64,000 nt of DNA from a phage. Position 1 is the first letter of the stretch, and every line of letters begins with the position of its first letter. Of this stretch, positions 7,978 to 62,500 are shown piece after piece. A program made the position numbers and the translations under genes. The notes under the pieces are model-generated. The model was not told the origin of the DNA. It saw only the letters and a list, made by a program, of their open reading frames with translations, and did not search any database. The DNA lies in assembly GCA_012401045.1 (NCBI GenBank), contig GCA_012401045.1_4704.2, one strand, 5' to 3'.

Positions 7978-8053
7978 CGTATTTTACCTTTCTATGTTAG
8001 GTGGATTTCGGATAGAAGAATCAATGCATAAACTAATTTAAGTTTGTTAAGGT

Positions 8054-8956
8054 TTACTTAGCCTTTGAGTTATACGGACTAACATGTTGTTGTACTCGTT
8101 GGATTGTATCGTAGTACGGGTTAAGTTGATTGAACATGTTGTTGTGTGGGTGATAGCCATATGGCGCATTTTGCCTTGTTGGTGAGAAACCTTGTTGAGA
8201 AGGACGGTTTGAATTAACCGCGAGTACGTAGTAAACCAAATTTTGGCGGTCGAACGTTCCTTCGTTTTTGAAGGTGTCGGCGTAGGCGCTTACCGCTGGA
8301 GCGAGCCTATCACCATCGGTTGTAATGATTGTGCCATCGGGATAAACTTCCCGAACGACGCACCATGTTCCGATGAGAACATCTTTGGGTGATGTATTAC
8401 CGTATCCGGTTGTAACGGTAAGGTAAGTATCGAACCCTTCAGAACAACAAGGATGACGATAGATGGGTCCTGTCATTTCCAGTCTATCGGTGTCACCGCA
8501 TTTCTCTATTGAGAGCGATGATGTGTCGGTTTTGAAATTGTCAAATTCTTTCTTTAAGTCGATTACGGGTTCTTTCGTATAGTACTTCTTGATTGCTTTG
8601 ACGTAAAGATCGGGAACGGTTGTCAGCAATCCGTTATACCTGATTCTCAGGTTTTCGAGTAATCCAAAGATGCTCGCGCATGCCTGTTCGCGAGGTTTTG
8701 TAAGATAAGAGATCCCCCCAGGAACGCTGGGATCTTTGAGAAAGAAGATTGCGTTATTGTCGTTGTGCGATGCGTTGAAGAAAACGATTGATTCGATATA
8801 TACGGAGCATAGGCTGTCGTTGGCGTCGTCAGATAACACCCAGATGCACTCATCGGTCGTCTTGTTTAAAAGTTCTGTTTTGTCGACCAAACGTTGTTTC
8901 ATTGCGAGGAAATGTGCCTGTTGTTCAGCGGATAATTCACGATAAATGGTGGTCAT
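8054..8956 (-). CDS. hypothetical protein (300 aa), paralog of 9042..9824
   Basis: AAGGAG RBS; shares [YF]D[RT]YLT[IV]T-G and RE[IV]YPDG-I[VI]T blocks with the adjacent gene. Confidence 0.7.
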   Translation of the reverse strand: MTTIYRELSAEQQAHFLAMKQRLVDKTELLNKTTDECIWVLSDDANDSLCSVYIESIVFFNASHNDNNAIFFLKDPSVPGGISYLTKPREQACASIFGLLENLRIRYNGLLTTVPDLYVKAIKKYYTKEPVIDLKKEFDNFKTDTSSLSIEKCGDTDRLEMTGPIYRHPCCSEGFDTYLTVTTGYGNTSPKDVLIGTWCVVREVYPDGTIITTDGDRLAPAVSAYADTFKNEGTFDRQNLVYYVLAVNSNRPSQQGFSPTRQNAPYGYHPHNNMFNQLNPYYDTIQRVQQHVSPYNSKAK

Positions 8957-9041
8957 GTTGAGCTCCTTGATTACGATAAGGATGATTGCGGTTTTGTGGT
9001 GTTGGTAGGGCCCTAAACAAATGAACCCTACTAATATTAGG

Positions 9042-9824
9042 TTAATCGGGATCGGCGTAGAAATGGTGAGGATAGCCGGAGTACGATCCCGCGTTACCGG
9101 TTATGGATTCTTTCTGGGAATCGACGACGAGTGCATAGAACTGTCGGGAATTTGTTAGCGTTGAGAAATAAGAGGAAAGGACTTTTTCATTCAACGCATC
9201 GCAAGGTAGACAGGTGCGACCGCAAAACGTCACGATACGGCCGTCAGGATAGATCTCACGAATCATTCTCCACTCGCCAATATCGACTGGTGATGGCGCT
9301 GCTACACCACCTGTTATCGTTAAGTAACGATCGTACGTGGTATGGCATTCAGGATGAACGTAAATCGGTTGGGCATCAATACTATCGTTTTCTGTTTGAT
9401 CTTTATTCACGTATACCTCAAGGTAGATTGTTGGTAACCCGGTTAGAACGCCAGTGTCACGACGTTTTTTGGTAATCCGGGGACGGATATTATCGAGCAC
9501 GCCTTCCAGTTTTTCTGCGACTTCGTCAGCCGGTAATATATACCCGTATGTTGGTTCTGGGTCATCACCGTGGCTAAATAAGATACGACAGTCGTTTTTA
9601 TTAAATTCTATATCTTCAGGTGGGAAGATGATGACGCGAACCGTATGGCGTTCTGCGATATAAAATCCTTCAGGCCCCTCAGTTTTGGTAAGTGTAAAGG
9701 ACCAGGATGAATGATCTTCAAGTGACGTGCCTGCCAGGAAAAAGTCCGCCCGAATTGGTGCGTTCCATTTCGCGATCATATTGGCGTGACCAATAACGCC
9801 TAATTTTTGATAAATATCTGTCAT
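9042..9824 (-). CDS. hypothetical protein (260 aa), paralog of 8054..8956
   Basis: ATG with GAGG RBS; conserved promoter-like motif lies upstream; paralogy as above. Confidence 0.7.
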   Translation of the reverse strand: MTDIYQKLGVIGHANMIAKWNAPIRADFFLAGTSLEDHSSWSFTLTKTEGPEGFYIAERHTVRVIIFPPEDIEFNKNDCRILFSHGDDPEPTYGYILPADEVAEKLEGVLDNIRPRITKKRRDTGVLTGLPTIYLEVYVNKDQTENDSIDAQPIYVHPECHTTYDRYLTITGGVAAPSPVDIGEWRMIREIYPDGRIVTFCGRTCLPCDALNEKVLSSYFSTLTNSRQFYALVVDSQKESITGNAGSYSGYPHHFYADPD

Positions 9825-39840: not shown

Positions 39841-41592
39841 ATGAGCGAACAAGAACGAAAACCTAAGAAGAAACTGCTCGGTATTCAATGTCGACACATC
39901 AGCTATAACGAAGCGAACGATGGCAGCAAGAACGACCTCATGATCGCAAAAGAGATCATGTTCTTTGATGACAATACGCAAGCGACGAACCTTCGCTTCT
40001 TTGAGAATTACAAACGTCCGTTTTGGGTGACGGTAGAGAGTAAACGTAAGAACAAATATAAAAAGGAAAGCGAGAAGCTCTCGCATGTGCGTCGCTACGA
40101 TGTCCGCCAAAGCGAACTGGTTGAAAAGATCAGCTCGGTACTTTATAAAAGACGTGCTGACGATAACACCCGTTTACAGCAGCTTGCACGGAGTCCATAC
40201 CTCTATGGAACGGACGTTAGCGCCAGCTGTTATTTAAAAACCCAGTACAACACAAAATGGCCGGAATACGTCGATAAATTACCCGCTTCCATTGCCTGTT
40301 TCGATATCGAAACCGACGTTGTCCACGGACACGGTAAGATCGTTTGTATGTCTATTACAATGGGATACAATGCGATACTTTGCTATACCAAGGACTTCGT
40401 TGGTCATATTCCGAATGCCATTGAGAAAACCCATGAGAAGATTCGATATTACCTGGCCGAACGTCTGAATACCAAAGAAGATCCCCACGCATTCGAAAAA
40501 TATCAGTACGATGTTCGAATCGTAGAAAGCCCGGCACAAGCGGTCATCCAATGCATGCAGAAGGTTCACGAATGGCAGCCGGATTATCTCCTTGGCTGGA
40601 ATATCGCGTTCGATATTCCGCGCATGCTCCAGGCACTGAACGAGGAAGGGTATCGTCCCGAGGATGTTTTCTCCGATCCCCGTATACCACCTAAATATCG
40701 TATTGCTCGCTGGGTACCACCGAAGACCGACAAGGTATCTGCTTCAGGTCGTAAAACCAACCTTACCCTTGAGCAAACCTGGCCGATGTTTTATACGATG
40801 GCTACGTATCAGGTTATGGATGCGATGTGTGGCTATAAGTTCGTTCGTTTAGGAAGACCGGATGAAGGACGCTATTCACTCGATGCGGTGTTAGAGCGAA
40901 ATAAATGCCATACGAAATTAAAAGCTATTCCTGGTACAGAGGGGTTCACGGAGCTTGCCTGGCACGAAGAGATGCAAACGAACCATCAAATCGACTACGG
41001 CGTATATAACCTTTGGGATAACCAGGGTATTGAGGCGTTGGACCAGAAAACAAAAGACTATTCGATGACCATCCCTATCCGTTTAGCGGCGTCGGATTTG
41101 AAAGATTTCAGTTCTAACCCTAAACGTATCTGCGATAAACTTTTCTTCGTTTATCTTAACCGTGGGGAAGTCATGGGATGTACCGCTGACGACATGACCC
41201 AGGAAGAAGATAAGTGGGTTATCTCACGAGCTGGACATATCGTCACATTACCATGCGATCTCATGGCTGACAACGGCATTCATCTCTTCTGGGATATGCC
41301 GAACCTGAGAAGTTATATCCGTCTATTCGTTGCAGACCTTGACATTAGCAGTTCATACCCGAATGGGCAGATCCTGTTGAATCTATCCAGAGCGTGTGTT
41401 TTTCGCGAGCTCTCACGCATTGAGGGCGTCTCTGACTATCAATTCAGGAAGTTAGGTATCAACTTTATTACCGGAGGTAAAACGAACGCTGTAGACTTCT
41501 GTAGAATCGTTTATAAAGCACCATCGATGTTTGAACTTTTAGAACATTTCGATGCAACGCGTCCAAAAGAGGAAGCGCGGACCATCGAATGA
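39841..41592 (+). CDS. family-B DNA polymerase N-terminal fragment: 3'-5' exonuclease domain plus polymerase motif A
   Basis: Exo I FDIETD, Exo II WNIAFD, Exo III YNLWD, then DISSSYP matching motif A (DxxSLYPS); ORF ends ~80 aa later with no motif B or C. Confidence 0.6.
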   Translation: MSEQERKPKKKLLGIQCRHISYNEANDGSKNDLMIAKEIMFFDDNTQATNLRFFENYKRPFWVTVESKRKNKYKKESEKLSHVRRYDVRQSELVEKISSVLYKRRADDNTRLQQLARSPYLYGTDVSASCYLKTQYNTKWPEYVDKLPASIACFDIETDVVHGHGKIVCMSITMGYNAILCYTKDFVGHIPNAIEKTHEKIRYYLAERLNTKEDPHAFEKYQYDVRIVESPAQAVIQCMQKVHEWQPDYLLGWNIAFDIPRMLQALNEEGYRPEDVFSDPRIPPKYRIARWVPPKTDKVSASGRKTNLTLEQTWPMFYTMATYQVMDAMCGYKFVRLGRPDEGRYSLDAVLERNKCHTKLKAIPGTEGFTELAWHEEMQTNHQIDYGVYNLWDNQGIEALDQKTKDYSMTIPIRLAASDLKDFSSNPKRICDKLFFVYLNRGEVMGCTADDMTQEEDKWVISRAGHIVTLPCDLMADNGIHLFWDMPNLRSYIRLFVADLDISSSYPNGQILLNLSRACVFRELSRIEGVSDYQFRKLGINFITGGKTNAVDFCRIVYKAPSMFELLEHFDATRPKEEARTIE

Positions 41593-42747: not shown

Positions 42748-43146
42748 TTATGCTTCGCAATCAGCTGAAGGCGTCGCGCCTTTCTTACCAGCGATACACC
42801 AAATCCGACACGCTGGGTAATGGTTAACCTCTAGAGAGCAAGGAATGTTATATTTCTCTTCCAGCGCATAAAGACATTTCGTTAGCTGCTCCAGCGCGTT
42901 CTCGTCGTGTCGTAACGCGTGGTGGCCTAATCGATGTTGGTCGTTCTTTATATACGCCTCGAAGAGAACATGTTGGCGATGTACGCTGACGTTTACAGCC
43001 TCGAGTATAGCTTGGTCGAGCATACGACTAAAGCACATCAACGAGTCAGATACGTTTTCTCGCTTAACCAGATCAATCATGGCGGGAATATACGAATGGT
43101 CGATGTTATCGATGACCGCTTTAGCGACGGAATCAGCAACGTTCAT
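42748..43146 (-). CDS. small protein (~132 aa), paralog of 43183..43578
   Basis: Track ORF starts at GTG (43176); first ATG (codon 11) aligns with the paralog N-terminus; shared EEKYNIP[CF]SLEVN block. Confidence 0.65.
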   Translation of the reverse strand: MNVADSVAKAVIDNIDHSYIPAMIDLVKRENVSDSLMCFSRMLDQAILEAVNVSVHRQHVLFEAYIKNDQHRLGHHALRHDENALEQLTKCLYALEEKYNIPCSLEVNHYPACRIWCIAGKKGATPSADCEA

Positions 43147-43182
43147 CTTTTTAATCCCTAGTTTGTTATTGATCACGTATAT

Positions 43183-43578
43183 TTACTCTTTGACGTCAGT
43201 TGTCGTTTCGACATGCTTCTCACTACTGACGTACCAGAGCAGGTACGCTGGGAAAAGATTGACCTCTAAGCTAAATGGAATATTGTATTTCTCTTCCATT
43301 TTACAGAGATGTTCTTTAAGTAAATTTCTCGCGTCTCTGTCACCACGAACAGAGTGCCAGTCTAGTTCTTTGTTCTCCTTTACCAGGACCTCTACGATGA
43401 TACGTTGCTCGTGAACCTCGGTTTTCACAGTGAAAAGTAAATCGCTGCTATCAAAACGGGTAAAACGAATGTATGAACCAGGTGTTTTTTCTTGTTTAAT
43501 AATATCGATCATGGTAGAAATGCGCGGATGATCGATGTTGTCGTTAACAGCTTTAACGATGGATTCTACAATGCTCAT
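43183..43578 (-). CDS. small protein (131 aa), paralog of 42748..43146
   Basis: AAGGA RBS; paralogy as above. Confidence 0.65.
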   Translation of the reverse strand: MSIVESIVKAVNDNIDHPRISTMIDIIKQEKTPGSYIRFTRFDSSDLLFTVKTEVHEQRIIVEVLVKENKELDWHSVRGDRDARNLLKEHLCKMEEKYNIPFSLEVNLFPAYLLWYVSSEKHVETTTDVKE

Positions 43579-43610
43579 TTTTTATCCTTAATGTTATCGA
43601 TTTGGAAATA

Positions 43611-44378
43611 TTACTTATTTTTGCTTTCTTTATAGACAGTTGTTACCCACGATGGGAAAGCCGGATGGAAACAGAGCGTGAACGTAACTGTCGTATCGTA
43701 TTTAAACGCACAGTTCACTAACCGGGTATCTAACGTTTTCCTTAATCCGTCATCATCGTTATCGATGATGGTCATATCTCTTAATATCCCAAGCACGTTA
43801 ACGCCATCGGGTGTCTGGGTTACGACAAGTCGTCGTAATGGCCCGCATGTATAGTCACGTACAAATCCTTTCTTCGGGTCCGATACCCTGTTTAACGCAT
43901 CGTGATTTTTGATGAATTCATCGGCGATACAATAGGTTTGTTCCCTTGCTTTATCGGGATCGTATTCTGCTAATAGTTCCTTCGTGTCGAACGTTATCAT
44001 GTTATTATCATTCGATTCAGAAGGGAAGCATAAAACTAAACGAACAGGGTACTCGTATTGATCTGTTCTCGTTTCGAAAGCATTAGCTAAACACGGCTTG
44101 TATGCCTTTGCGTCGACATTGTCCAAACATGGATGCAATAATGCATGAATAACGGCACCATCGTCAGTTAAACCGAATTCCAGAAATTGTACCCTATCAG
44201 TATCCGCTACGGTTTTCTGAAGGTACGCTTTACCGTTAACAATATCGGTATCCCACATATCGTCGTTTAACGATTCTTCAAACTTATCGAATATATGGTT
44301 TACGAGATTGACGAGTTCATCAATACGGCACTGTTGGTTGAATTCGATTAATCGTTGAACTTTATCTTTGATAGACAT
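43611..44378 (-). CDS. hypothetical protein (255 aa) related to the EYDPD small-protein family
   Basis: Contains LAEYDPD block shared with 44381..44839, 44839..45300 and 45372..45866. Confidence 0.65.
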   Translation of the reverse strand: MSIKDKVQRLIEFNQQCRIDELVNLVNHIFDKFEESLNDDMWDTDIVNGKAYLQKTVADTDRVQFLEFGLTDDGAVIHALLHPCLDNVDAKAYKPCLANAFETRTDQYEYPVRLVLCFPSESNDNNMITFDTKELLAEYDPDKAREQTYCIADEFIKNHDALNRVSDPKKGFVRDYTCGPLRRLVVTQTPDGVNVLGILRDMTIIDNDDDGLRKTLDTRLVNCAFKYDTTVTFTLCFHPAFPSWVTTVYKESKNK

Positions 44379-44380
44379 GA

Positions 44381-44839
44381 TTACCCATTAGCTCCTTCTT
44401 CGTCTGGAGAGTATTCCATCGTGTAGAATTCATAACCATCGGAAAACTTGAGTGTTAATGTAATAGGGAAATCGCACGGCATAGCTGATTTCGTAAATGC
44501 GTTATTAGCAACATCAGCCAACCGACGTATAGCATCAGTCCCGCTGACGCTGAACGGTAGTTGTATGTTGATAAGGATGCGGTGCTTGTAAACATGGAAA
44601 ACAACGGTACTGTCAAGATAAACGCTATGGAACGGTATTGTTGGGATGCGTTCCACAATGGAAAAATACGTCCCGTCATTATCGCTATGCCCCATCGACC
44701 AAATATCGGATTTGCGTAGATTTTGTTTGAGGGATTCGATACTTCGAGTGACGGTCTCATCAACAGGCGTGACGTAAGTGTCTTTATGCGAGTCGAAAAG
44801 TTCGTTGACGTTAGATTCGAATGAATACATTGTTGCCAT
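44381..44839 (-). CDS. small paralogous protein (152 aa), EYDPD family
   Basis: QLPFSVSG and EYSPDEE blocks shared with the downstream paralog; 1-nt overlap coupling. Confidence 0.65.
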   Translation of the reverse strand: MATMYSFESNVNELFDSHKDTYVTPVDETVTRSIESLKQNLRKSDIWSMGHSDNDGTYFSIVERIPTIPFHSVYLDSTVVFHVYKHRILINIQLPFSVSGTDAIRRLADVANNAFTKSAMPCDFPITLTLKFSDGYEFYTMEYSPDEEGANG

Positions 44840-45300
44840 TATTCTACCTCTTTCTTCATCTTCATCGGAACAGAGAGTGCTGTTATCTCTGTTCCATTAT
44901 CCGGTTCATACTCCAATGTAACGAGATTGCAGCCATCCGATAATTCATAATCGATCGCTAGGGGGAACGAGATACCGTGCGACTTTATGCATTTACCAAA
45001 TGTCTCGTTGGCTGTATACATTAGAAGTTGCTTTGCGGCAAGCCCGTTTACGCTGAAAGGTAATTGTGCTGTCGCAGCGATACGATTATTGTAAACTCTG
45101 ATATCGGTGATATCTACAATCGTAGCATTGCCGTGTTGTGTTGTTGGAACGGATAGGTTGTAGAAGTAAGGTTCGGAGTCGGAATCGGGCTCGTTAAATA
45201 ATTCCCAGCACCCGTCCTCCTGCAATCTTACTTCGAGTATTTCAAAGCTTTTAATTATCGATTCTACCAGCTGCTCACCGTAAGAATCCCATGTCGTCAT
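44839..45300 (-). CDS. small paralogous protein (153 aa), EYDPD family
   Basis: QLPFSVNG and EYEPDNG blocks. Confidence 0.65.
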   Translation of the reverse strand: MTTWDSYGEQLVESIIKSFEILEVRLQEDGCWELFNEPDSDSEPYFYNLSVPTTQHGNATIVDITDIRVYNNRIAATAQLPFSVNGLAAKQLLMYTANETFGKCIKSHGISFPLAIDYELSDGCNLVTLEYEPDNGTEITALSVPMKMKKEVE

Positions 45301-45371
45301 TTTTTAACACCTTCGACACCTTTTAACCGATACGTGTCCCATCTAACAAGGGACACGATATCGTTGATTAA

Positions 45372-45866
45372 TTACTCTTCTGTGTTTTCATTGTCAGGAT
45401 CGTAGTGGAATTCGAACAGCCCTGAACCGTCGTGTCCGTTGATTGTTAGTATAACGGGCATATCGAATCCTCGGACACGCGAATGAAAACATTGTGCTAA
45501 TTTTAGTTTGGCGTATGCCGCTACTTCATTGACAGCAATACACGATTCACCTGTTATACTCAGTATAACGTCGATACTAACAACGTTGTCGTGCAACGCA
45601 AAACGCCAGCGATCGATACGATTATTATCTTTATCGGTTGTCTCGTTTACGAGATAGACTTTATCGTCAACCGACAAAGCGGGACTCCAGCAACGATCGT
45701 TTATTAAATTCGCCTGGAGTTTTAGTATCGTCTGATCGATAATATCCCAACACGTAACCAGCGTGGTGTCAGGCACTGAGTAGAGAAGGGCGTGCACTTT
45801 ATCCTTTATTTTAAGTGCTTCCGCAGGACGTCCGCAAATACCATGCATTTCAACTTTCTTATTCAT
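45372..45866 (-). CDS. small paralogous protein (~164 aa), EYDPD family
   Basis: Track ORF starts at GTG (45872); ATG is codon 3; C-terminal FEFHYDPDNEN block. Confidence 0.6.
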   Translation of the reverse strand: MNKKVEMHGICGRPAEALKIKDKVHALLYSVPDTTLVTCWDIIDQTILKLQANLINDRCWSPALSVDDKVYLVNETTDKDNNRIDRWRFALHDNVVSIDVILSITGESCIAVNEVAAYAKLKLAQCFHSRVRGFDMPVILTINGHDGSGLFEFHYDPDNENTEE

Positions 45867-50760: not shown

Positions 50761-51234
50761 ATGCCAGTTTCATCCAAACCAAGAAAAAAATCCGTAGGAA
50801 ACCCTAAAGCTCAGGAAACAACAGCAATTCGTTGGGACGAGTTACGTGAACCTATCGAAAACTGCGAATTGTTATTGGGTACCCTGGGTGCGGCTATTTA
50901 CCAAGCGACGCAACCCTGTCGTTTACGATTAACCCAAAACAAACGTGATGAGTTCGTTGCGTTATCAACAAGCACGAATAAAGATCTGACCGAACTTCAA
51001 ACCGAGTTGACGACGATCAAGAACTCCATTACGCCGATGTACGGTAAAGAAGTTGATGAACAAAGTATTCTGTTACAGTACAACTACGGGATGTCGTTAA
51101 TGAACATCCTGGAACGCGCATCCGATATTCTGCGTCCTGACGTTGCACGTCTAAGCCAACTGCGTGTCGAAGGGATGGAGAACCAGATCCGATTCGCTAA
51201 CAGTGTTAAATCTCAAGGAGCCACCGAAGCATGA
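50761..51234 (+). CDS. hypothetical protein (157 aa)
   Basis: AGGAG RBS; stop overlaps next start (ATGA). Confidence 0.65.
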   Translation: MPVSSKPRKKSVGNPKAQETTAIRWDELREPIENCELLLGTLGAAIYQATQPCRLRLTQNKRDEFVALSTSTNKDLTELQTELTTIKNSITPMYGKEVDEQSILLQYNYGMSLMNILERASDILRPDVARLSQLRVEGMENQIRFANSVKSQGATEA

Positions 51235-52916
51235 GCGAACAAGAAAAAGAAGTCGTGACGAATCAGGAAGCCGTTGAGCGTTCAGAGTCGTCCGTTGAAA
51301 CTACGATTCCGGCAAGTTCCGAGCCGGTTGGTTCCGCACAGCAGGAAAGTAAAGACGAAGTCAGCACGACTAAAGAAGATGTAGTGGCTCCAGAAGCAAC
51401 CCGTGAAGAAGAACCATCACATCCACCACTAATCGATTTCTCGAAGGCGACGATACGTTTCCAATGCGAAGACATTCGTCCTAAGAGCCCGAAGAAAACA
51501 AAACGCCAGCCGTTGGTGTTACCGCTGTATTCTCCACGTGTGCAGACAACGTATTACCGGGAATACATCAACGAAGCAATGGATACCGTGCAAGCCATTG
51601 TCGCTCAACGCGGTAAACCGACAGACGAACAATTTGATAAATTCAGTAAAGCGGTGGTGCAATCGGTTGCTGATGGACAATATCATCCGCGTGGCCCAGC
51701 TCACGATCGCGCCTTGGAACGTAAGGGCAGTCAGTGGACTAACGTACCCGTAGACTCATCGGGTGTTGGTCGCGTTATTCCTGGCATTCCACAACCGAAC
51801 CATATCCCTGATGATGTCGAAGCGCCGCTGACAGGAACCGATGCGATCTATTTTGCAATCCGCAATACGAAATCAGGTGCGCCTGCGGTAATGCCGTTAT
51901 GGCATAGCGGTATTAAGCTGCAGTTCAATCCGCCGTCAAATGAACGTGTTGCAATTATGCACGAACGTATTGCACGCGATAAAATCCTGGGTGGACGTGA
52001 TAGCACCGGTTTCCTGTTTTCGGCAACCTCGATTATCACCATGAAGCACGCAATCGAATTAGCGTTAGAATGCTGTTACATGGCCAACGTACCGAACCTG
52101 GATATCCAGCGTTTGAAAGACATTATCCCGGTTACCGATGTTCCGGCATTGTTGTTGAACGTGCTGGTAACCATGTATCCGTACGGATATCCTTACGTAC
52201 AGACCTGCTATCAGAATCCAGAAACCTGCGACTATCGTGTTGAAGATACCGTAAGCTTTGCGAAACTCTATCAAGTTGACAACAGCGCAATAACCAAACG
52301 TATGCGACAGATCATGACCGAAGGTCCGGTCATGACGGATGAACTTTTGCGTGAGTATGCAAACGAACTGGGTGAAACAAACTCCCGTACGCTGGATCTG
52401 TCCGACAACGGTTCTGTTATCATTGAACTTGAAGTACCGAAGATCTCACGACAAATAGCCATGGGCGAACGCTGGTTAAGCGATACCCTGGAAGATCTGC
52501 GTGATATTCTATCGCGTCCGTCAATGACCGAAGAAGAGCGTGATCGTGTTATTCGTGAACGTCAGTTTTATAGCTGGATGCGTCAGTATGATGCGTGGAT
52601 CAAATCGATGCACGTGTCAGTAAACGGTACCATGCGTCGTGTAAGCGATGCAGATACGGCAACGGTATTAGCACAGCTGTCACGAGACAGCGACCTTCGT
52701 GAACGTTATATTGACGGGTTGATGCAATTCATCGGTGATTCGACGATTGCGCTCGCAGCGATGCCTGCCTGGAAATGTCCGAAATGTAATGCCGATATTG
52801 CTGACAATCTGCGTGACCAGAAATACTACGATCTGATTGCTTTGGATGTACCCCAGCTTTTTTTTACCCTAAACTCCGTCCAATCTCTTCAGGAGGGGAT
52901 GGACGCGGTATTCTAA
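51231..52916 (+). CDS. hypothetical protein (561 aa); possible -1 frameshift extension into the next ORF
   Basis: AAGGAG RBS. A T8 run at ~52858-52865 sits near the 3' end; the downstream ORF frame is open from 52817. Confidence 0.7.
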   Translation: MSEQEKEVVTNQEAVERSESSVETTIPASSEPVGSAQQESKDEVSTTKEDVVAPEATREEEPSHPPLIDFSKATIRFQCEDIRPKSPKKTKRQPLVLPLYSPRVQTTYYREYINEAMDTVQAIVAQRGKPTDEQFDKFSKAVVQSVADGQYHPRGPAHDRALERKGSQWTNVPVDSSGVGRVIPGIPQPNHIPDDVEAPLTGTDAIYFAIRNTKSGAPAVMPLWHSGIKLQFNPPSNERVAIMHERIARDKILGGRDSTGFLFSATSIITMKHAIELALECCYMANVPNLDIQRLKDIIPVTDVPALLLNVLVTMYPYGYPYVQTCYQNPETCDYRVEDTVSFAKLYQVDNSAITKRMRQIMTEGPVMTDELLREYANELGETNSRTLDLSDNGSVIIELEVPKISRQIAMGERWLSDTLEDLRDILSRPSMTEEERDRVIRERQFYSWMRQYDAWIKSMHVSVNGTMRRVSDADTATVLAQLSRDSDLRERYIDGLMQFIGDSTIALAAMPAWKCPKCNADIADNLRDQKYYDLIALDVPQLFFTLNSVQSLQEGMDAVF

Positions 52917-53008
52917 TCGATCCGCGATACGGGTTACATGACGGACAACTTGTTCGTAATGATGAAAAAATCTGGGAACTGCTGTTAGCGCGTAAAGGCG
53001 ACGGCGGC

Positions 53009-53338
53009 ATGAAGCTGAACATCGAAATGGGTATTGCGTACGATACCATGTTTGGCTTGTACGATCGTGTTAACGAATGGACGCCGTTGAAATGGGTTGC
53101 TCAGCATCCCGCTGAAGATCCCTGGGACAGATTGGGGATTAAACCCTTAATCGAAGATTATGTCCGATTCGGTATTAAAGAGTTCATGACGCTGGATGCG
53201 TTTTTAAAAGCACCGTATCCTTACGCGCAAACGGTACTCAAAATCGCACAAGACGAACTGCGGAAACGTAGTGCGGTACTGGACGACGATGAGGACAAGT
53301 TACGACGAGAAGAAGAACGTTTACGAAACGGAAAATAA
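53009..53338 (+). CDS. hypothetical protein (109 aa) or 3' portion of a frameshift product
   Basis: ATG at 53009 has a weak RBS; its frame is open for ~190 nt upstream, overlapping the end of the 561-aa ORF. Confidence 0.5.
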   Translation: MKLNIEMGIAYDTMFGLYDRVNEWTPLKWVAQHPAEDPWDRLGIKPLIEDYVRFGIKEFMTLDAFLKAPYPYAQTVLKIAQDELRKRSAVLDDDEDKLRREEERLRNGK

Positions 53339-53339
53339 A

Positions 53340-53849
53340 ATGGCAAGATTTACCAGTTTGATTGGATTGGATATTTGGGAAACACCGGCTGACGTTCGGG
53401 TTATTCCTGTTAACACCGTCGGTGTGATGGGACGTGGTCTTGCCAAACAGGCAGCCGATCGTGTGCCCGGTCTTCTTGAAGCGTACCGTAAGCAATGTCA
53501 AGATGGGTTTAAGGTGGGCGAAGTCGTATCGTATCAGCAAGGCGAGAACGATCAGCTCACTTACGTGTTGTTTCCATCAAAATCGGATTGGCGTGAAAGA
53601 ACACGACGCGAGTATATCGTTAACGGTTTACTGGCGTTAAAAGCATGGTTACTGGAGCTTCAGTTCGAAAGAGACGGCTTCTCATATCGGCGTCCGGCTG
53701 AACCGCTGATCGTTGCAATTCCTCCGGTCGGTTCTGGTTGCGGTAATATCGGTTACGGACAATCCGAAACAATCCAGCCTCAATGGGTACGCGCACAAAT
53801 CAAACAGTATCTTGCCACCGTACCAAACGTTCATTTCTACTTGTTCTAA
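53340..53849 (+). CDS. macro-domain-like protein (ADP-ribose binding/processing; ~169 aa)
   Basis: Track ORF 53271..53849; ATG at 53340 directly follows upstream stop. VIPVNTVGVMGRGLAKQAA resembles the macro-domain glycine-rich loop; IPPVGSGCGNIGY resembles its second loop. Confidence 0.5.
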   Translation: MARFTSLIGLDIWETPADVRVIPVNTVGVMGRGLAKQAADRVPGLLEAYRKQCQDGFKVGEVVSYQQGENDQLTYVLFPSKSDWRERTRREYIVNGLLALKAWLLELQFERDGFSYRRPAEPLIVAIPPVGSGCGNIGYGQSETIQPQWVRAQIKQYLATVPNVHFYLF

Positions 53850-53859
53850 TGCAAAGGTA

Positions 53860-53905
53860 ACATAACCCTCCTCCAACCCGTAAGGGAAGGAGGAGGGCTT
53901 ATGCT
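53860..53905. terminator. bidirectional hairpin (CCCTCCTCC aacccgtaaggg AAGGAGGAGGG) between convergent genes
   Basis: Between stop of macro-domain gene (+) and stop of 53907..54281 (-). Confidence 0.6.
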
Positions 53906-58158: not shown

Positions 58159-58260
58159 GGTGTTGTCCTATACGTTGGTGGTTGAGGTGGCGGATATCGG
58201 ATGCGTGTTGTCGTCAGGTAATACATACAGAAACGCCCACTGATAAAACAGCAGCTTCTT

Positions 58261-58917
58261 TTAAATTGAATTTAGATATCGCTTACCACCAACAAACGAC
58301 GTCAACCAGTTCCCTGAAACAAGCTGCGAAGCCCAGCCAGGCACTGCCCTACCGTTCTGACTCATCACGTTACCTGCCCATCCCGGAAAACCTGGTACCA
58401 TTTCGTATATATTGAACGATTCTATCTGGAACGAACCAAGCTTAACGTAGTGCGTTGTTGATCGGTACTTAAATTCAATAATAACAAAGAACGGATGTGA
58501 TTGTAAGTCGGACATTCTAATAGGTGCCGAGAGATTACCCGCCGACCATGGTTTCCACGTATGCTTACGGCTATCACAGTCAATATTACCCATTGAACCG
58601 TTAGCTGACGCGTTCCAGAATAGCTTATAGTCATACGCGGCGACATCGCCACTCCATCCTTGGAGAGGTATATTTGGTACATATACCCCGTTATTCCATT
58701 GTCCGTGTTGAATTTCTTCAGCATCGCCATGCCCAGAGACATATTCTAAGTACGCGTTTGGGTGTCTAGCGACGACTTCTCGCGCAAAAGAACGCAAGTC
58801 AAAAAGATGGGCGACAATGCTGTTATTATAAGCCACTCTCCAGCCGGGATCACGCCACCCTAATTTGCCGTCAGCGTGCCTTCTAGACGTGAACCCTATA
58901 GTTCGCGCTATTGCCAT
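58261..58917 (-). CDS. hypothetical protein (~218 aa), paralog of 57517..58158
   Basis: Track ORF extends to 58968 inside a hairpin; internal ATG (codon 18) has GAGG RBS and aligns with the paralog N-terminus (MAI...). Confidence 0.6.
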   Translation of the reverse strand: MAIARTIGFTSRRHADGKLGWRDPGWRVAYNNSIVAHLFDLRSFAREVVARHPNAYLEYVSGHGDAEEIQHGQWNNGVYVPNIPLQGWSGDVAAYDYKLFWNASANGSMGNIDCDSRKHTWKPWSAGNLSAPIRMSDLQSHPFFVIIEFKYRSTTHYVKLGSFQIESFNIYEMVPGFPGWAGNVMSQNGRAVPGWASQLVSGNWLTSFVGGKRYLNSI

Positions 58918-58963
58918 TTTATACCTCGTTCCTATTCTCAAAAAGGAAATTTCATACGATGAC

Positions 58964-59006
58964 GCCATAGCAGCTCCTCCAACCCGTCAGGGAAGGAGGA
59001 GCATAC
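58964..59006 (-). terminator. hairpin (GCTCCTCC aacccgtcaggg AAGGAGGAGC) downstream of lipoprotein gene
   Basis: Loop sequence identical or near-identical to other family members. Confidence 0.55.
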
Positions 59007-59010
59007 TTAA

Positions 59011-59517
59011 TTACTTACTGATAACCTCAACGGAGTTGGGATCAGCGATCAATGCACGGTCGGTAGAACAATTGAAGAAGACCATCCCAACACCATCGCC
59101 GTTCGAGTTCAGGGTTGAACTTGCGTAAGACAATGTTGGTTTATTCATGCGGTAGAAGCGTTCGCTGGTTGCGGTATTGAACCCCAGGTCAACGTAGTCT
59201 TTCACCGTGGTATACAACTGGGTGGACTCGAAAACGGTTACCGGAGAGTCAACGGTAAATTGACTACCTTCGTCCACAACCAGAACTTTATCGTTCCAGA
59301 TTTCAGTGGTTGAGAACTTCGGTTTCCAATGTTCGAATTCCTGGGTTGCACCCCAGCAAGAATACACAGCGAGATTGCTGTTCTTCTCGACTGGTTTCAA
59401 ACCCACCAGTTGCGTCAGGTCTTTATCCAGGTTCGGTAAACCTTCCAGCGTAGCACACCCACCCAGAGAAAGCACCATCAACATACCAAGAACGATCGCA
59501 CAAAGTTTCTTCATCAT
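59011..59517 (-). CDS. predicted outer-membrane lipoprotein (168 aa)
   Basis: N-terminal MMKKLCAIVLGMLMVLSLGGC: signal peptide with lipobox-like LGGC, Ala at +2. AAGGA RBS. Sits between tail fibre gene and fibre-module paralogs. Confidence 0.6.
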   Translation of the reverse strand: MMKKLCAIVLGMLMVLSLGGCATLEGLPNLDKDLTQLVGLKPVEKNSNLAVYSCWGATQEFEHWKPKFSTTEIWNDKVLVVDEGSQFTVDSPVTVFESTQLYTTVKDYVDLGFNTATSERFYRMNKPTLSYASSTLNSNGDGVGMVFFNCSTDRALIADPNSVEVISK

Positions 59518-59565
59518 TAGATTTCCTTATGTGTTAACGGAAGTGACTTCCATAAGGATTGATGA

Positions 59566-62500
59566 TTACTTTTTGAGCGCTTTAAGTTCTTCTTCCATCG
59601 CTTCCACTTTTGCCGTAAGCTTCTGTACTTGTTTGATTAATGGAACCACCAAACGTTCGTACATAACACCTTCGGCGACGAGTCCGTTAGAAGAAACGAT
59701 AGCGGGGTCATCTTCTTCGGTTGCATCACGCCAATGCACGTATTGTGGTGCGATCTCACCAACCTCTTCGGCAATCAACCCATACCAACCCCAATCCTTG
59801 TTGTCGGCTTCGCAGGTAGAACGATACCAGACAGGACGCATCTCCAATACTTTATCCGCTTGTTCATCCGTGATATTCTCGATATCTTTCTTATAGCGCC
59901 GCGACGACGTTGAACGAAACACATTGTTGATCCCAGCAGTAGGACTGATATACATATTAGCCCCGCTGGTTGTAGTGCTAATGTCCCATACCGCAAATCC
60001 GCCGTTACTCCCATTTCTCACGACCAACGTATTGGCAATAATATCCAGGTTATTGTTGTAACCGGTTAACTGGTTTTCGGTGACAAAATCGGATAAGTTA
60101 ACGGAGTAGTTCTTGCTGTTATAACAACGACGCCATCCTGGGCTGTTGGTGCTGCCATTATAGTTGTCGTAGCTATAAATGAACTCGGAGTTGGTTTTCG
60201 CACCACTGACGGAAGACGTGGTTGCGGTGGTAACACGGATAGTGTAGTTCGTCATCCCGAAGCTAACGACCTCGATAACCGCACCAGCCAGAGGAATAAT
60301 ACCACATTTGGTTTCACTGTCTGGGATGTATGCGCTATCGGCAGCAGCGAAGGAGCAACGTGCGACCCAGGCACGGGTATTGAATGCACCTTGGTTCTGT
60401 AATAACGTAATAAACGATGAGGTCGTAATCGAGCTGTTATTATCACCTGTGATCAACCAGCCGGTTGGACATGCGGTAGCACCAACGTTTTTCGCTGTTA
60501 GCGTGATGTTCTTCGATCCGTCGAAGGCTACGCCGCTGATGGTACGTGCAGTCTGTAGCTTCGTCGCCGTTGCCGCGTTCCCTGATGTGTTCTGGTTCCC
60601 TGCCGCATTAACACCAGGCAGATTGATGTTCGCACTACCGTCGAAAGACACCCCGCCAATGGTGCGGGCTGTTTTCAGTTTTGTCGCCGTGGCGGCATTA
60701 CCGGTTGTGTCTTGGTTACCGGTGGTGTTTACCCCAGGTAGATTGATATTTGCCGTTCCGTTAAATGAAACGCCGCCAATCGTCCTTGCCGTTTGCAACT
60801 TCGTTGCAGATGCCGCATTCCCCGTGGTGTTTTGGTTGCCTGTTGTATTCACACCCGGGATACTATCCTTAGATGTGTAGATCTGTGCCCATTCCGACCA
60901 TTTCGCATCGGTTGAATCACGACGTGAACGTAGGTAAGCTGGAGCGTGTGCACCCGAGGTACCTGACCATCCAATGAGGATTTCACCTTCGCCGACCGAT
61001 GAAGCGCCTTTAAGATGAACAACGTTACCGTAGGCTGTAGGGTATCCGTTATTGTACGCTTCATACATCTGGATACCCGTATTGCTGCCCTGGGTCGCAT
61101 TAGCTAAAGCGGTGACCCGTCCCTTGGAAGCGAGCACGTTAATGCTAAAGCTAATATCGGTTGTACCGTCAAAGGCGACCCCATTAATCCTCCGCGCTGT
61201 TTGGAGTTTCGTGGCAGTAGCCGCATTACCAGAGGTACTCTGATTGCCTGCTTTGTTCACACCTGGTAAATCAATGTTGGCGGTTCCATCAAAGGACACG
61301 CCCCCTATGGTTCTCGCCGTCTGAAGTTTTGTTGCTGAACCAGCGTTTCCGGAAGTGCTTTGATTACCCGCCGCGTTGACACCTGGTAGGTTAATGCTAG
61401 CAGAACCATCAAAAGAAACTCCACCGATCGTAATAGCTGTTCGCAACTTCGTGGCTGTCGCAGCGTTACCCGTCGTATTCTGATTACCAGCTGCATTGAC
61501 GCCAGGTAATGCGATATCAGCTGTGCCATCGAACGCGACACCTCCGATTTTACGGGCGGTTTGTAGCTTGGTTGCTGTAGCAGCATTACCGCTGGTATTT
61601 TGCGTACCGGCTTTATTTACACCAGGAAGATCGATGTTAGCAGAACCATCGAAGCTGACGCCACCTATCGTTCTTGCAGTAGCAAGTTTAGCGGCTGTAG
61701 CAGCGACGTTACCGACTTTTAACCATTCTCCCCATGGACCATCCACACCGTTCCATGATGCCGTTAAACTGCGCACGTATATGTTTCCTGTACGTACTGT
61801 GTAACGTTGTGTTCCACCGAATTGACCGGCTGGGAGCACTTCGATGTAACCTACAGCATTTGCTTCAGGGAAATTGTGGGCAGCATCGGCATTCGTTGAT
61901 GTTTGTTTGGACCAAATACCCACAGACGCTTCAACCGGACCGTAGGTATCCAGATTTGCATCGGTGGGGAGCTGTCCTCGAAAACGTCGGAATAATGAAG
62001 CCGATAACCCCAACGTTGTTTGCATCCCTTCAATGCTTGACTGCGATAGAAGCGCCCGAGCTGTCGACGTGATGGCCGCTAAAGCAACCTTATCCGTACC
62101 GGTAAAAAACGGGAATTTGTTTGCTGATGTTGCTAAACCTGAAAGGGCGGTCAGTAATGCGTTAAGGGGTTGTTTCCCGGCTAGCGCGTTAGTCACAGTC
62201 GTTGCAAAGTTTGGATCATTACCTAACGCTTGAGCTAACTCGTTAAGCGTATTTAGCGCTTCTGGAGACGAGTCGATCAGCGACGCGATAGCACGCATCA
62301 CAAATTCCGTGTTGGCGATCTGTTGACTGCTATCGTTCTCTGCAGCCGTAGGTGCTGCTGGGATACCGGTGAACACAGGGTTATTAAGATCCGCCTTAAG
62401 GGCGATGAGACGTCTAAGTGCTTCAACATCGACTTTCAGGTTTTCCCATCCGACGAGATAACCATCACCGGTTGTGTGATAACGGTTGTACCAAAAATCG

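What the first reader, a model, noticed from the sequence alone, without database searches (positions are those of the whole stretch)
53340..53849. Phage-encoded macro-domain-like protein, a candidate counter-defence or NAD-metabolite processing factor
VIPVNTVGVMGRGLAKQAA and IPPVGSGCGNIGY resemble the two glycine-rich ADP-ribose-binding loops of macro domains in a ~170-aa protein. Macro domains reverse ADP-ribosylation and hydrolyse ADP-ribose derivatives. In a phage this suggests antagonism of host ADP-ribosylating toxins (for example DarT-type DNA ADP-ribosylation) or of NAD-derived immune signals. The gene is translationally coupled to the 51231-53338 pair.
Basis: partly seen in the sequence, partly recalled or inferred. 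Interest (0 to 1): 0.6.

Follow-up and report, generated by a model that had tools for sequence, protein, structure and literature searches.

The report
Jumbo-phage anti-DarT macrodomain (AdfM)

Summary
The ORF at 53340-53849 (+) is real: 169 aa, under purifying selection (dN/dS 0.08 against Goslar). It passes Pfam Macro. Its best matches by sequence, profile and predicted fold are the macrodomains of the antitoxin DarG (T. aquaticus 5M31/5M3E, M. tuberculosis 5M3I). The two DarG catalytic residues are kept (N25 = Taq N22, K81 = Taq K80), as are both glycine loops. There is no DarT-binding C-terminal domain and no darT next door.

The window is about 96% identical to Escherichia phage Goslar, a chimallivirus, and the protein is 97% identical to Goslar gp83. 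Morgan et al. (Cell Rep 2026, PMC13309987) list gp83 as a member of AdfM, "anti-DarT factor macro". They showed that the PhiKZ orthologue gp104 removes DarT2-made ADP-ribose from ssDNA, enters the phage nucleus, and is needed to resist DarTG2.

Verdict: observation confirmed, DarT reading supported, already known. The Thoeris/NAD-signal alternative has no support. "Coupling" holds only for the immediately upstream reading frame (stop 1 nt before the ATG).

Noticed in passing, and possibly more interesting: that upstream "pair" (51231-53338) looks like a programmed -1 frameshift at a T8 run. The arrangement recurs in all 10 chimalliviruses examined, and I found no report of it.

The parts
53340..53849 (+). 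AdfM-type stand-alone macrodomain gene (169 aa plus stop); orthologue of Goslar gp83, PhiKZ gp104 and PhiPA3 gp108
   Evidence: ORF and sequence. Pfam Macro, PADLOC DarG and NCBIfam DarG. 97% aa identity to Goslar gp83. 32% identity to PhiKZ gp104, E 3e-24.
53400..53456 (+). Glycine-rich loop 1 (residues 21-39, VIPVNTVGVMGRGLAKQAA), including the catalytic-site Asn N25 (codon 53412-53414), which equals Taq DarG N22 and PhiKZ AdfM N23
   Evidence: Alignments A1 and A2. N25, G28, G31 and G33 are invariant. N23A reduces PhiKZ AdfM activity (PMC13309987).
53580..53582 (+). Codon of K81, the counterpart of the catalytic lysine of DarG (Taq K80) and of PhiKZ AdfM (K78), within FPSKSDWR
   Evidence: invariant in all aligned sequences.
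53718..53756 (+). Glycine-rich loop 2 (residues 127-139, IPPVGSGCGNIGY), the diphosphate-binding loop
   Evidence: P128, G131, G133 and G135 are invariant in A1. pLDDT is lower here: the 131-140 block averages 63.
53861..53903 (.). Strong GC-rich hairpin between the convergent genes; probable bidirectional terminator that ends the 50761-53849 gene string
   Evidence: dG -29.2 kcal/mol, z -4.8 against shuffles. Annotated as a terminator at the same place in Goslar. The simple T-run scan did not call it.
53009..53338 (+). Upstream reading frame (Goslar gp082). Its stop, TAA 53336-53338, lies 1 nt before the AdfM ATG, so this is the only true candidate for translational coupling
   Evidence: The same spacing (2 nt) is seen in the 46%-identical relative L004.

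Best explanation
The gene encodes AdfM, an 'orphan antitoxin'. It is a stand-alone DarG2-type macrodomain made by a Goslar-like chimallivirus (a nucleus-forming jumbo phage).

Proposed mechanism:
- When the host's DarT2 toxin ADP-ribosylates thymidines in TNTC motifs of single-stranded phage DNA, AdfM binds the ADP-ribose through its two glycine-rich loops.
- It hydrolyses the base-ribose bond using the DarG-type catalytic site (N25, K81). This restores unmodified DNA, so replication and packaging can proceed.
- Unlike DarG, it has no DarT-binding domain, so it acts purely by erasing the modification.
- By analogy with PhiKZ, PhiPA3 and Asesino, it is probably imported into the phage nucleus by the PicA pathway, where the DNA is.

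What is shown here: gene reality, fold class, nearest relatives, conserved catalytic residues, orthology to Goslar gp83, absence of a C-terminal domain and of darT.

What is taken from the literature on orthologues about 32% identical: enzymatic activity, the DarTG2 counter-defence phenotype, and nuclear localisation.

What is inferred for this protein: all three of those properties.
For: - The window is about 96% identical in nucleotides to Escherichia phage Goslar, and the protein is 97% identical to gp83.
- PMC13309987 names the family AdfM and lists Goslar gp83 in its Fig. 1B alignment.
- That paper shows PhiKZ gp104 removes DarT2-made ADP-ribose from a DNA oligo (reduced by N23A) and neutralises DarT2 toxicity.
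- It also shows nuclear localisation for PhiKZ, PhiPA3 and Asesino, and that AdfM deletion sensitises PhiKZ and PhiPA3 to DarTG2 by 3-6 logs.
- Best PDB sequence hits are the DarG macrodomains 5M31/5M3E (4.5e-15) and 5M3I (1.7e-11).
- PADLOC DarG scores 2.9e-22 and NCBIfam antitoxin_DarG scores 4.3e-23. Both cover only the macro part of the profile.
- The AF2 model has pLDDT 87.3 and pTM 0.85.
- Foldseek ranks 1-4 are DarG structures (E 2e-14, TM 0.87, rmsd 1.8 A), ahead of TARG1, Poa1p and viral macros.
- N25 and K81 align with Taq N22/K80 and PhiKZ N23/K78, and both Gly loops are invariant.
- dN/dS is 0.077, and none of the 5 substitutions against Goslar falls at a functional position.
- TNTC motifs are not avoided in the window: 2354 observed against 2256 +/- 37 expected. 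The genome therefore offers abundant DarT2 targets.
Against: - No experiment exists on this protein or on Goslar gp83 itself. In the paper gp83 appears only in an alignment.
- Identity to the tested orthologues is only 31-33%.
- The Goslar lineage carries two insertions relative to DarG and other short macros, at about residues 108-122 and 139-148. Both are modelled with low confidence (block pLDDT 58 and 63), and the second abuts the diphosphate loop.
- Nuclear import is species-specific and maps to PhiKZ residues 77-95, which differ here. Localisation therefore cannot be transferred with certainty.
- Whether the natural hosts of this phage carry DarTG2 was not tested.
Confidence: 0.88

Rival explanations
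1. A generic macrodomain hydrolase acting on something other than DNA. Candidates are removal of ADP-ribose from proteins or RNA (TARG1- or MacroD-like) and hydrolysis of ADP-ribose-1''-phosphate or O-acetyl-ADP-ribose. The latter matches the 'Poa1p-like', 'Appr-1-p processing' and 'phosphatase' labels used in database annotation.
For: - Goslar's own annotation cites CDD Macro_Poa1p_like.
- PHROG 335 is labelled 'phosphatase'.
- Some metagenomic relatives are named O-acetyl-ADP-ribose deacetylase.
- TARG1 and Poa1p are significant structural matches, at E 6e-10 and 1e-7.
- Macrodomains are often promiscuous in vitro (general knowledge).
Against: - DarG macrodomains beat TARG1 by 4 orders of magnitude and Poa1p by 7, with much lower rmsd (1.8 A against 3-5.8 A).
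- DarG-specific profiles score about 80 bits against 26 bits for generic Macro.
- The tested orthologue acts on ADP-ribosylated DNA, and its loss gives a DarTG2-specific phenotype.
Confidence: 0.08
2. An enzyme or sponge that destroys or sequesters NAD-derived immune signals, for example Thoeris gcADPR or His-ADPR.
For: Only the general fact that macrodomains bind ADP-ribose-containing ligands. No tool result points this way.
Against: - The nearest relatives are all DNA-ADPr glycohydrolases.
- The catalytic Lys and Asn of the DarG mechanism are conserved.
- The orthologue localises to the phage nucleus, whereas signalling molecules act in the cytoplasm.
- To my own knowledge, the known anti-Thoeris proteins are unrelated sponges.
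Confidence: 0.02
3. A catalytically inactive ADP-ribose 'reader', or a decaying remnant.
For: Low model confidence around part of loop 2 and the lineage-specific insertions.
Against: - Catalytic and binding residues are invariant across relatives from 34% to 97% identity.
- dN/dS is 0.077.
- The gene is retained, with conserved position, in a 46%-identical relative.
Confidence: 0.02

Closest known systems
AdfM (anti-DarT factor macro): PhiKZ gp104, PhiPA3 gp108, Asesino gp217, Goslar gp83 (Morgan et al., Cell Rep 2026, PMC13309987)
   Same: - Stand-alone DarG2-like macrodomain of about 160-170 aa, encoded by a chimallivirus.
- Same N-terminus (MA.F), the same catalytic Asn and Lys, and the same Gly loops.
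- 97% identical to the listed member Goslar gp83.
   Different: - Only about 32% identical to the experimentally tested PhiKZ and PhiPA3 proteins.
- The Goslar lineage has its own insertions at about residues 108-122 and 139-148.
- The genomic position differs. Here it is the last gene after the PhiKZ-gp077-like block; in PhiKZ the two are 34 kb apart.
DarG2 antitoxin macrodomain (T. aquaticus 5M31/5M3E, M. tuberculosis 5M3I, T. africanus DarTG 7OMU)
   Same: - Best sequence and fold match: TM 0.87, rmsd 1.8 A, 28-29% identity.
- The catalytic N22 and K80 equivalents are present.
   Different: - No C-terminal DarT-binding domain. The match covers profile positions 7-146 of 338 and scores 82 bits against a cutoff of 250.
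- No adjacent darT gene.
- It is phage-encoded, so it is a counter-defence rather than an antitoxin protecting its own cell.
TARG1 / C6orf130 (human terminal ADP-ribose glycohydrolase)
   Same: Same macrodomain subclass with a catalytic lysine. It is the next-best structural match, at E 6e-10.
   Different: Only 17-20% identity and rmsd about 3 A. It is a eukaryotic protein known mainly for removing ADP-ribose from proteins.
AdfN (T-even gp30.3), a NADAR-type orphan antitoxin against DarTG1 (PMC11257639)
   Same: Same strategy: a phage carries the catalytic half of the host antitoxin and erases the DNA ADP-ribosylation.
   Different: Unrelated fold (NADAR, not macro). It is specific for guanine ADP-ribosylation by DarT1 and does not counter DarTG2.

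Membership tests
Macro domain (Pfam PF01661) | Profile match above the curated gathering score | tested here: met
   25.8 bits against a cutoff of 22, E 1.1e-5, residues 23-141 on profile positions 3-113 of 118
Macro domain (Pfam PF01661) | Three-layer alpha/beta/alpha macro fold | tested here: met
   AF2 model with pLDDT 87.3 and pTM 0.85. 182 PDB matches at E<=1e-3; the top 50 listed are macrodomains or designed hydrolases derived from a macro scaffold.
DarG2-type macrodomain / AdfM | Closer to DarG macrodomains than to any other macro subclass | tested here: met
   PDB sequence hits are only DarG entries. PADLOC DarG scores 2.9e-22 and NCBIfam DarG 4.3e-23. Foldseek ranks 1-4 are DarG, then TARG1, Poa1p and viral macros.
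DarG2-type macrodomain / AdfM | Catalytic lysine (Taq K80 / PhiKZ K78) and active-site asparagine (Taq N22 / PhiKZ N23) | tested here: met
   K81 and N25 align and are invariant in A1 and A2. The numbering of the PDB chain was derived from the alignment.
DarG2-type macrodomain / AdfM | Stand-alone protein of a chimallivirus, orthologous to PhiKZ gp104 | tested here: met
   169 aa. The window is about 96% identical to Goslar. The protein is 97% identical to gp83, which the authors list as AdfM. BLASTP against gp104 gives E 3e-24 over the full length.
DarG2-type macrodomain / AdfM | Removes DarT2-made ADP-ribose from ssDNA and protects the phage from DarTG2 | not testable with these tools
   Shown for PhiKZ gp104 and for PhiPA3 gp108 mutants only
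DarG2-type macrodomain / AdfM | Imported into the phage nucleus (PicA pathway) | not testable with these tools
   Shown for PhiKZ, PhiPA3 and Asesino. The recognition region, PhiKZ residues 77-95, is species-specific. Goslar PicA is gp174, which lies outside this window.
Full-length DarG antitoxin (NCBIfam NF048014, type II TA) | C-terminal DarT-binding domain; whole-protein score above the curated cutoff | tested here: not met
   82.1 bits against a cutoff of 250. Only profile positions 7-146 of 338 are matched, and the protein ends at residue 169.
Full-length DarG antitoxin (NCBIfam NF048014, type II TA) | Adjacent darT toxin gene | tested here: not met
   The six flanking ORFs have no significant Pfam hit, DarT included. 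They are conserved chimallivirus proteins of unknown function.
Poa1p-like / Appr-1-p phosphatase macro (label used in Goslar and PHROG annotation) | Closest structural and sequence similarity to Poa1p | tested here: not met
   Poa1p ranks 13th or lower, at E about 1e-7 and rmsd 5-5.8 A, against DarG at 2e-14 and 1.8 A

The most novel reading that the evidence does not exclude
In the Goslar lineage AdfM is the terminal cistron of a string whose preceding reading frame (53009-53338) seems reachable only through a family-wide programmed -1 frameshift in the core gene 51231-52916. The AdfM ATG sits 1 nt after that frame's stop. AdfM synthesis could therefore depend partly on termination-reinitiation by the minority of ribosomes that frameshifted. 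That would tie the dose of the anti-defence enzyme to frameshift efficiency. Separately, the lineage-specific insertions might give a substrate range or an import signal different from PhiKZ AdfM.
Probability: 0.12. Interest if true: 0.5.

Novelty: already known. Interest (0 to 1): 0.2.

Why it matters
AdfM shows that the phage nucleus is not a perfect shield. Chimalliviruses still need an enzyme that repairs toxin-made DNA ADP-ribosylation. This window simply carries another copy of it, 97% identical to Goslar gp83.

Its practical value is threefold:
- It gives a correct functional label for a gene that most records call 'hypothetical', 'phosphatase' or 'Poa1p-like'.
- It corrects the start codon in the Goslar annotation.
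- It provides an E. coli/Salmonella-infecting member in which the activity could be tested against the enterobacterial DarTG2 systems.

The neighbouring candidate frameshift is the part that might be new biology.

Tried and rejected
- **Longer ORF starts** (GTG 53271; ATG 53289 as in Goslar RefSeq). Rejected because orthologue N-termini align at 53340 and L004 has a stop two codons upstream.
- **Functional module with the upstream genes.** tblastn found no gp080, gp081 or gp082 homologues within +/-6-17 kb of PhiKZ gp104 or PhiPA3 gp108. The gp081 homologue in PhiKZ is gp077, 34 kb away. The genes in the equivalent slot in Erwinia Rebecca and Salmonella SA002 are not macrodomains. The linkage is therefore lineage-specific, although it is conserved in a 46%-identical relative.
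- **Poa1p, MacroD or viral-macro assignment.** These rank lower than DarG.
- **Sigma-70 promoter and T-run terminator scans** gave nothing above shuffles. The hairpin was found by folding instead.
- **DarT2 motif avoidance (TNTC).** Not depleted; there is a slight excess.
- **Pfam, PDB and PHROG searches of the neighbours** returned only families of unknown function.
- **Literature searches for a reported frameshift in PhiKZ gp77 or in chimalliviruses** found nothing relevant in the held library.

Full report
**1. The observation**

The + strand carries an ORF from ATG 53340 to TAA 53847-53849, encoding 169 aa. Both quoted motifs are present, at residues 21-39 and 127-139.

The longest mechanical ORF starts at GTG 53271. 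Goslar's RefSeq annotation starts at the equivalent of 53289. The start at 53340 is the conserved one, for two reasons:
- PhiKZ gp104, PhiPA3 gp108 and two 46%-identical metagenomic relatives all begin MA(E/N/R)F at the aligned position.
- In the relative L004 an in-frame stop lies two codons upstream of the ATG.

Against Goslar the gene shows 19.5 synonymous and 5.5 non-synonymous differences (dN/dS 0.077). The five amino-acid changes (positions 40, 54, 58, 67, 117) avoid every conserved site. A strong hairpin at 53861-53903 (dG -29 kcal/mol, z -4.8) separates the gene from the convergent genes downstream. Goslar annotates a terminator at the same place.

**2. What the protein is**

Sequence and profile evidence:
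- Pfam Macro is passed, at 25.8 bits against a cutoff of 22.
- More specific models score far higher: PADLOC DarG at 2.9e-22 and NCBIfam antitoxin_DarG at 4.3e-23.
- Both specific models match only the N-terminal macro part of the profile (positions ~7-146 of 329/338). The NCBIfam score of 82 bits is well under the 250-bit equivalog cutoff, because the DarT-binding C-terminal half is absent.
- The only PDB sequence hits are DarG entries: T. aquaticus 5M31/5M3E at 4.5e-15, M. tuberculosis 5M3I at 1.7e-11, and 7OMU (T. africanus DarTG).

Structural evidence:
- An AlphaFold2 model built on 14 homologues has mean pLDDT 87.3 and pTM 0.85.
- Foldseek against the PDB ranks the three DarG macrodomains and T. 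africanus DarTG first (E 2e-14, TM 0.87, rmsd 1.8 A).
- TARG1 follows at about 6e-10, then Poa1p at about 1e-7 with rmsd above 5 A, then the alphavirus and coronavirus macrodomains.

Residue-level evidence:
- N25, G28, G31, G33, K81, W84, P128, G131, G133 and G135 are invariant across relatives from 34% to 97% identity.

Six flanking ORFs were scanned: gp079, gp080, gp081 and gp082 upstream, gp084 and gp085 downstream. None has a significant Pfam hit, DarT included.

**3. Where it comes from**

The window is collinear with, and 94-98% identical to, Escherichia phage Goslar (NC_048170), a nucleus-forming jumbo phage of the Chimalliviridae. The ORF corresponds to Goslar gp083, labelled 'macro domain-containing protein' and noted as weakly similar to PhiKZ ORF104.

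tblastn finds relatives in 171 phage records. Most are PhiKZ-like, PhiPA3-like, Erwinia and Salmonella jumbo phages, but phiEco32-like podophages also appear. An exhaustive HMMER scan finds 2908 representative clusters at E<=1e-3 and 163 at E<=1e-10. Most are stand-alone proteins of 140-180 aa, and a few are DarG-length proteins of about 320-470 aa.

**4. Mechanism, and what is already published**

Morgan et al. (Cell Rep 2026, PMC13309987) name this family AdfM, 'anti-DarT factor macro'. Their findings:
- PhiKZ gp104 removes the ADP-ribose that DarT2 places on the second T of TNTC in ssDNA. An N23A mutant is impaired.
- The protein rescues DarT2 toxicity.
- AdfM from PhiKZ, PhiPA3 and Asesino concentrates in the phage nucleus.
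- Deleting it sensitises PhiKZ and PhiPA3 to two DarTG2 systems. Titre drops by 3-6 logs, phage DNA becomes ADP-ribosylated, replication falls and packaging is blocked.
- Goslar gp83 (YP_009820768.1) is one of the five sequences in their Fig. 1B alignment, but it was not tested experimentally.

Earlier work showed that gp104 import depends on PicA and on a species-specific surface patch, residues 77-95 (PMC11087766). That patch corresponds to about residues 80-98 here. Goslar's PicA is gp174, which lies outside this window.

The best explanation is therefore that this gene is the AdfM of a Goslar-like phage. It would act as an orphan, purely enzymatic antitoxin that erases DarT2 marks from phage DNA, probably inside the phage nucleus.

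The fold class, active-site residues and orthology are shown here. Enzymatic activity, the counter-defence phenotype and localisation are inferred from orthologues that are about 32% identical.

Consistent with reliance on repair rather than avoidance, TNTC motifs are not depleted in the window: 2354 observed against 2256 +/- 37 in shuffles.

**5. Caveats and rivals**

The Goslar lineage carries two insertions relative to DarG and other short macros, at about residues 108-122 and 139-148. Both are modelled at low confidence, and the second follows directly on the diphosphate loop.

A generic role cannot be formally excluded. Candidates are removal of ADP-ribose from proteins or RNA, or hydrolysis of Appr-1''-p or O-acetyl-ADP-ribose, as the database labels 'Poa1p-like' and 'phosphatase' imply. 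This is disfavoured by the ranking of DarG over those families and by the orthologue's phenotype.

Nothing supports a role against Thoeris-type NAD-derived signals.

**6. The 'coupling' remark**

The genes at 50761, 51231, 53009 and 53340 form one co-directional string that ends at the hairpin. The frame ending at 53338 stops 1 nt before the AdfM ATG. The spacing is 2 nt in L004, a relative whose proteins in this block are 44-64% identical and in which the whole arrangement is conserved.

The linkage does not extend beyond the Goslar lineage:
- The gp081 homologue in PhiKZ is gp077, 34 kb from gp104 and on the other strand.
- In Erwinia phage Rebecca and Salmonella phage SA002 the gene in the equivalent slot is not a macrodomain.

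AdfM thus appears to occupy a variable slot at the end of a core gene block, not to form a functional module with it.

**7. Noticed in passing: a candidate family-wide -1 frameshift next door**

The 92-nt 'gap' between 51231-52916 and 53009-53338 is in fact coding.
- The 53009 frame is the -1 frame relative to gp081. It is open from 52817, so it overlaps the last 100 nt of gp081, and it has no ATG, GTG or TTG before 53009.
- Its translation is nevertheless conserved in L004.
- At the start of the overlap, both phages share the identical 24-nt sequence CAGC-TTTTTTTT-ACCCTAAACTCC.
- In the gp081 frame this reads CTT TTT TTT ACC, which is a U_UUU_UUU slippery heptamer. The stop follows 16 codons later.

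The pattern recurs in all 10 chimalliviruses examined: this window, L004, PhiKZ gp077/076.4, Noxifer, Erwinia Rebecca, 201phi2-1, Ralstonia RP31, Salmonella SA002, Vibrio sm033 and Cronobacter CR5.
- In every case the small downstream ORF is in the -1 frame, and that frame is open from upstream of a T-run.
- Nine of the ten have T_TTT_TTT or T_TTT_TTC. Noxifer has G_TTT_TTC.
- The site lies 7-19 codons before the 0-frame stop (16 in this window).
- The distance from slip site to -1-frame stop is a uniform 153-174 codons, with shared motifs throughout.
- The annotated starts of the small ORF are inconsistent (ATG, GTG or TTG; gaps of -4 to 218 nt).
- In PhiKZ the -1-frame peptide taken from the T-run matches PHROG 12109 over profile positions 7-144 of 147 (E 9e-24). 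The annotated gp076.4 covers only the last 81 aa of that peptide.
- Downstream of the window's T8 run, after a 9-nt spacer, two hairpins are predicted (z -2.5).

I found no paper in the held library that combines frameshifting with these genes or with this phage family. Ribosomal slippage and transcriptional slippage are not distinguished by this evidence. The function of the roughly 560-aa protein is unknown: it has no Pfam or PDB sequence match.

**8. Verdict**

The feature is already known as AdfM: it is 97% identical to a listed member of that family. Interest is low for the finding itself. The adjacent candidate frameshift deserves its own follow-up.

Noticed in passing
window 52817-53338 (slippery T8 at 52858-52865; gp081 0-frame stop at 52914-52916; -1 frame runs to the stop at 53336-53338). 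Also L004, L007 (PhiKZ), L008, L009, L010, L011, L012, L013, L014.: Candidate programmed -1 frameshift (or transcriptional slippage) that fuses the core protein gp081 (the PhiKZ gp077 homologue) to the 'gp082' frame. In 10 of 10 chimalliviruses examined the downstream small ORF is in the -1 frame. That frame is open from a conserved T_TTT_TTY run located 7-19 codons before the 0-frame stop, and it then extends a uniform 153-174 codons with conserved motifs. The annotated 'intergenic' gaps (92 nt here, 218 nt in PhiKZ) are coding: the extended PhiKZ peptide matches PHROG 12109 over profile positions 7-144 of 147. No report of this was found in the searchable literature.
   Followed up: partly
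window 53289-53339; L001 9267-9317 (Goslar gp083 annotated start): Goslar's RefSeq CDS for gp083 (186 aa) probably starts 17 codons too early and overlaps the end of the upstream frame. Orthologue N-termini, and an in-frame stop in relative L004, support the ATG at window 53340.
   Followed up: yes
window 8031-9819 (ORFs 8054-8956 and 9042-9824, minus strand): A segment of about 1.8 kb that is absent from Goslar. It carries two mutually similar ORFs of 300 and 260 aa that share a '...IY.HP.C...YDRYLT.T.G....SP.D.G.W...RE.YPDG.I...' region. No function was looked up.
   Followed up: no
window 41336-41356, compared with Goslar 81185-82967 (L005): Goslar's NUMOD1/HNH homing-endonuclease gene gp069, which sits next to the DNA polymerase gene, is cleanly absent from this phage. 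This presence/absence polymorphism is typical of a mobile endonuclease.
   Followed up: no
window 58210-62093: The region of the tail-fibre assembly gene and the C-terminal part of the tail-fibre gene (Goslar gp088-gp090) is the most divergent part of the window: 65-87% identity, gaps and internal repeats. This suggests a different receptor specificity from Goslar.
   Followed up: no
P0001 (protein from the search for homologous proteins): A 99%-identical copy of this protein is deposited as a hypothetical protein of a Salmonella enterica serovar Muenchen assembly, on an 809-bp contig. Goslar-like phage DNA therefore occurs in Salmonella sequencing data, and the host of this window's phage may be Salmonella rather than E. 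coli.
   Followed up: no
one search hit list (e.g. phiEco32 NC_010324 34905-35231; Pseudanabaena phage PA-SR01; a Thermus phage): DarG-like stand-alone macrodomains at 25-32% identity also occur in phages that do not form a nucleus, such as the ~77-kb phiEco32-like podophages. Macrodomain-based anti-DarT2 defence may therefore extend beyond chimalliviruses.
   Followed up: no
window 42756-45400: An array of small minus-strand genes (130-255 aa) that are paralogous to each other, for example 42748-43176 and 43183-43578. The array is partly replaced relative to Goslar gp071-gp073, so it is a fast-evolving accessory gene family of unknown function.
   Followed up: no
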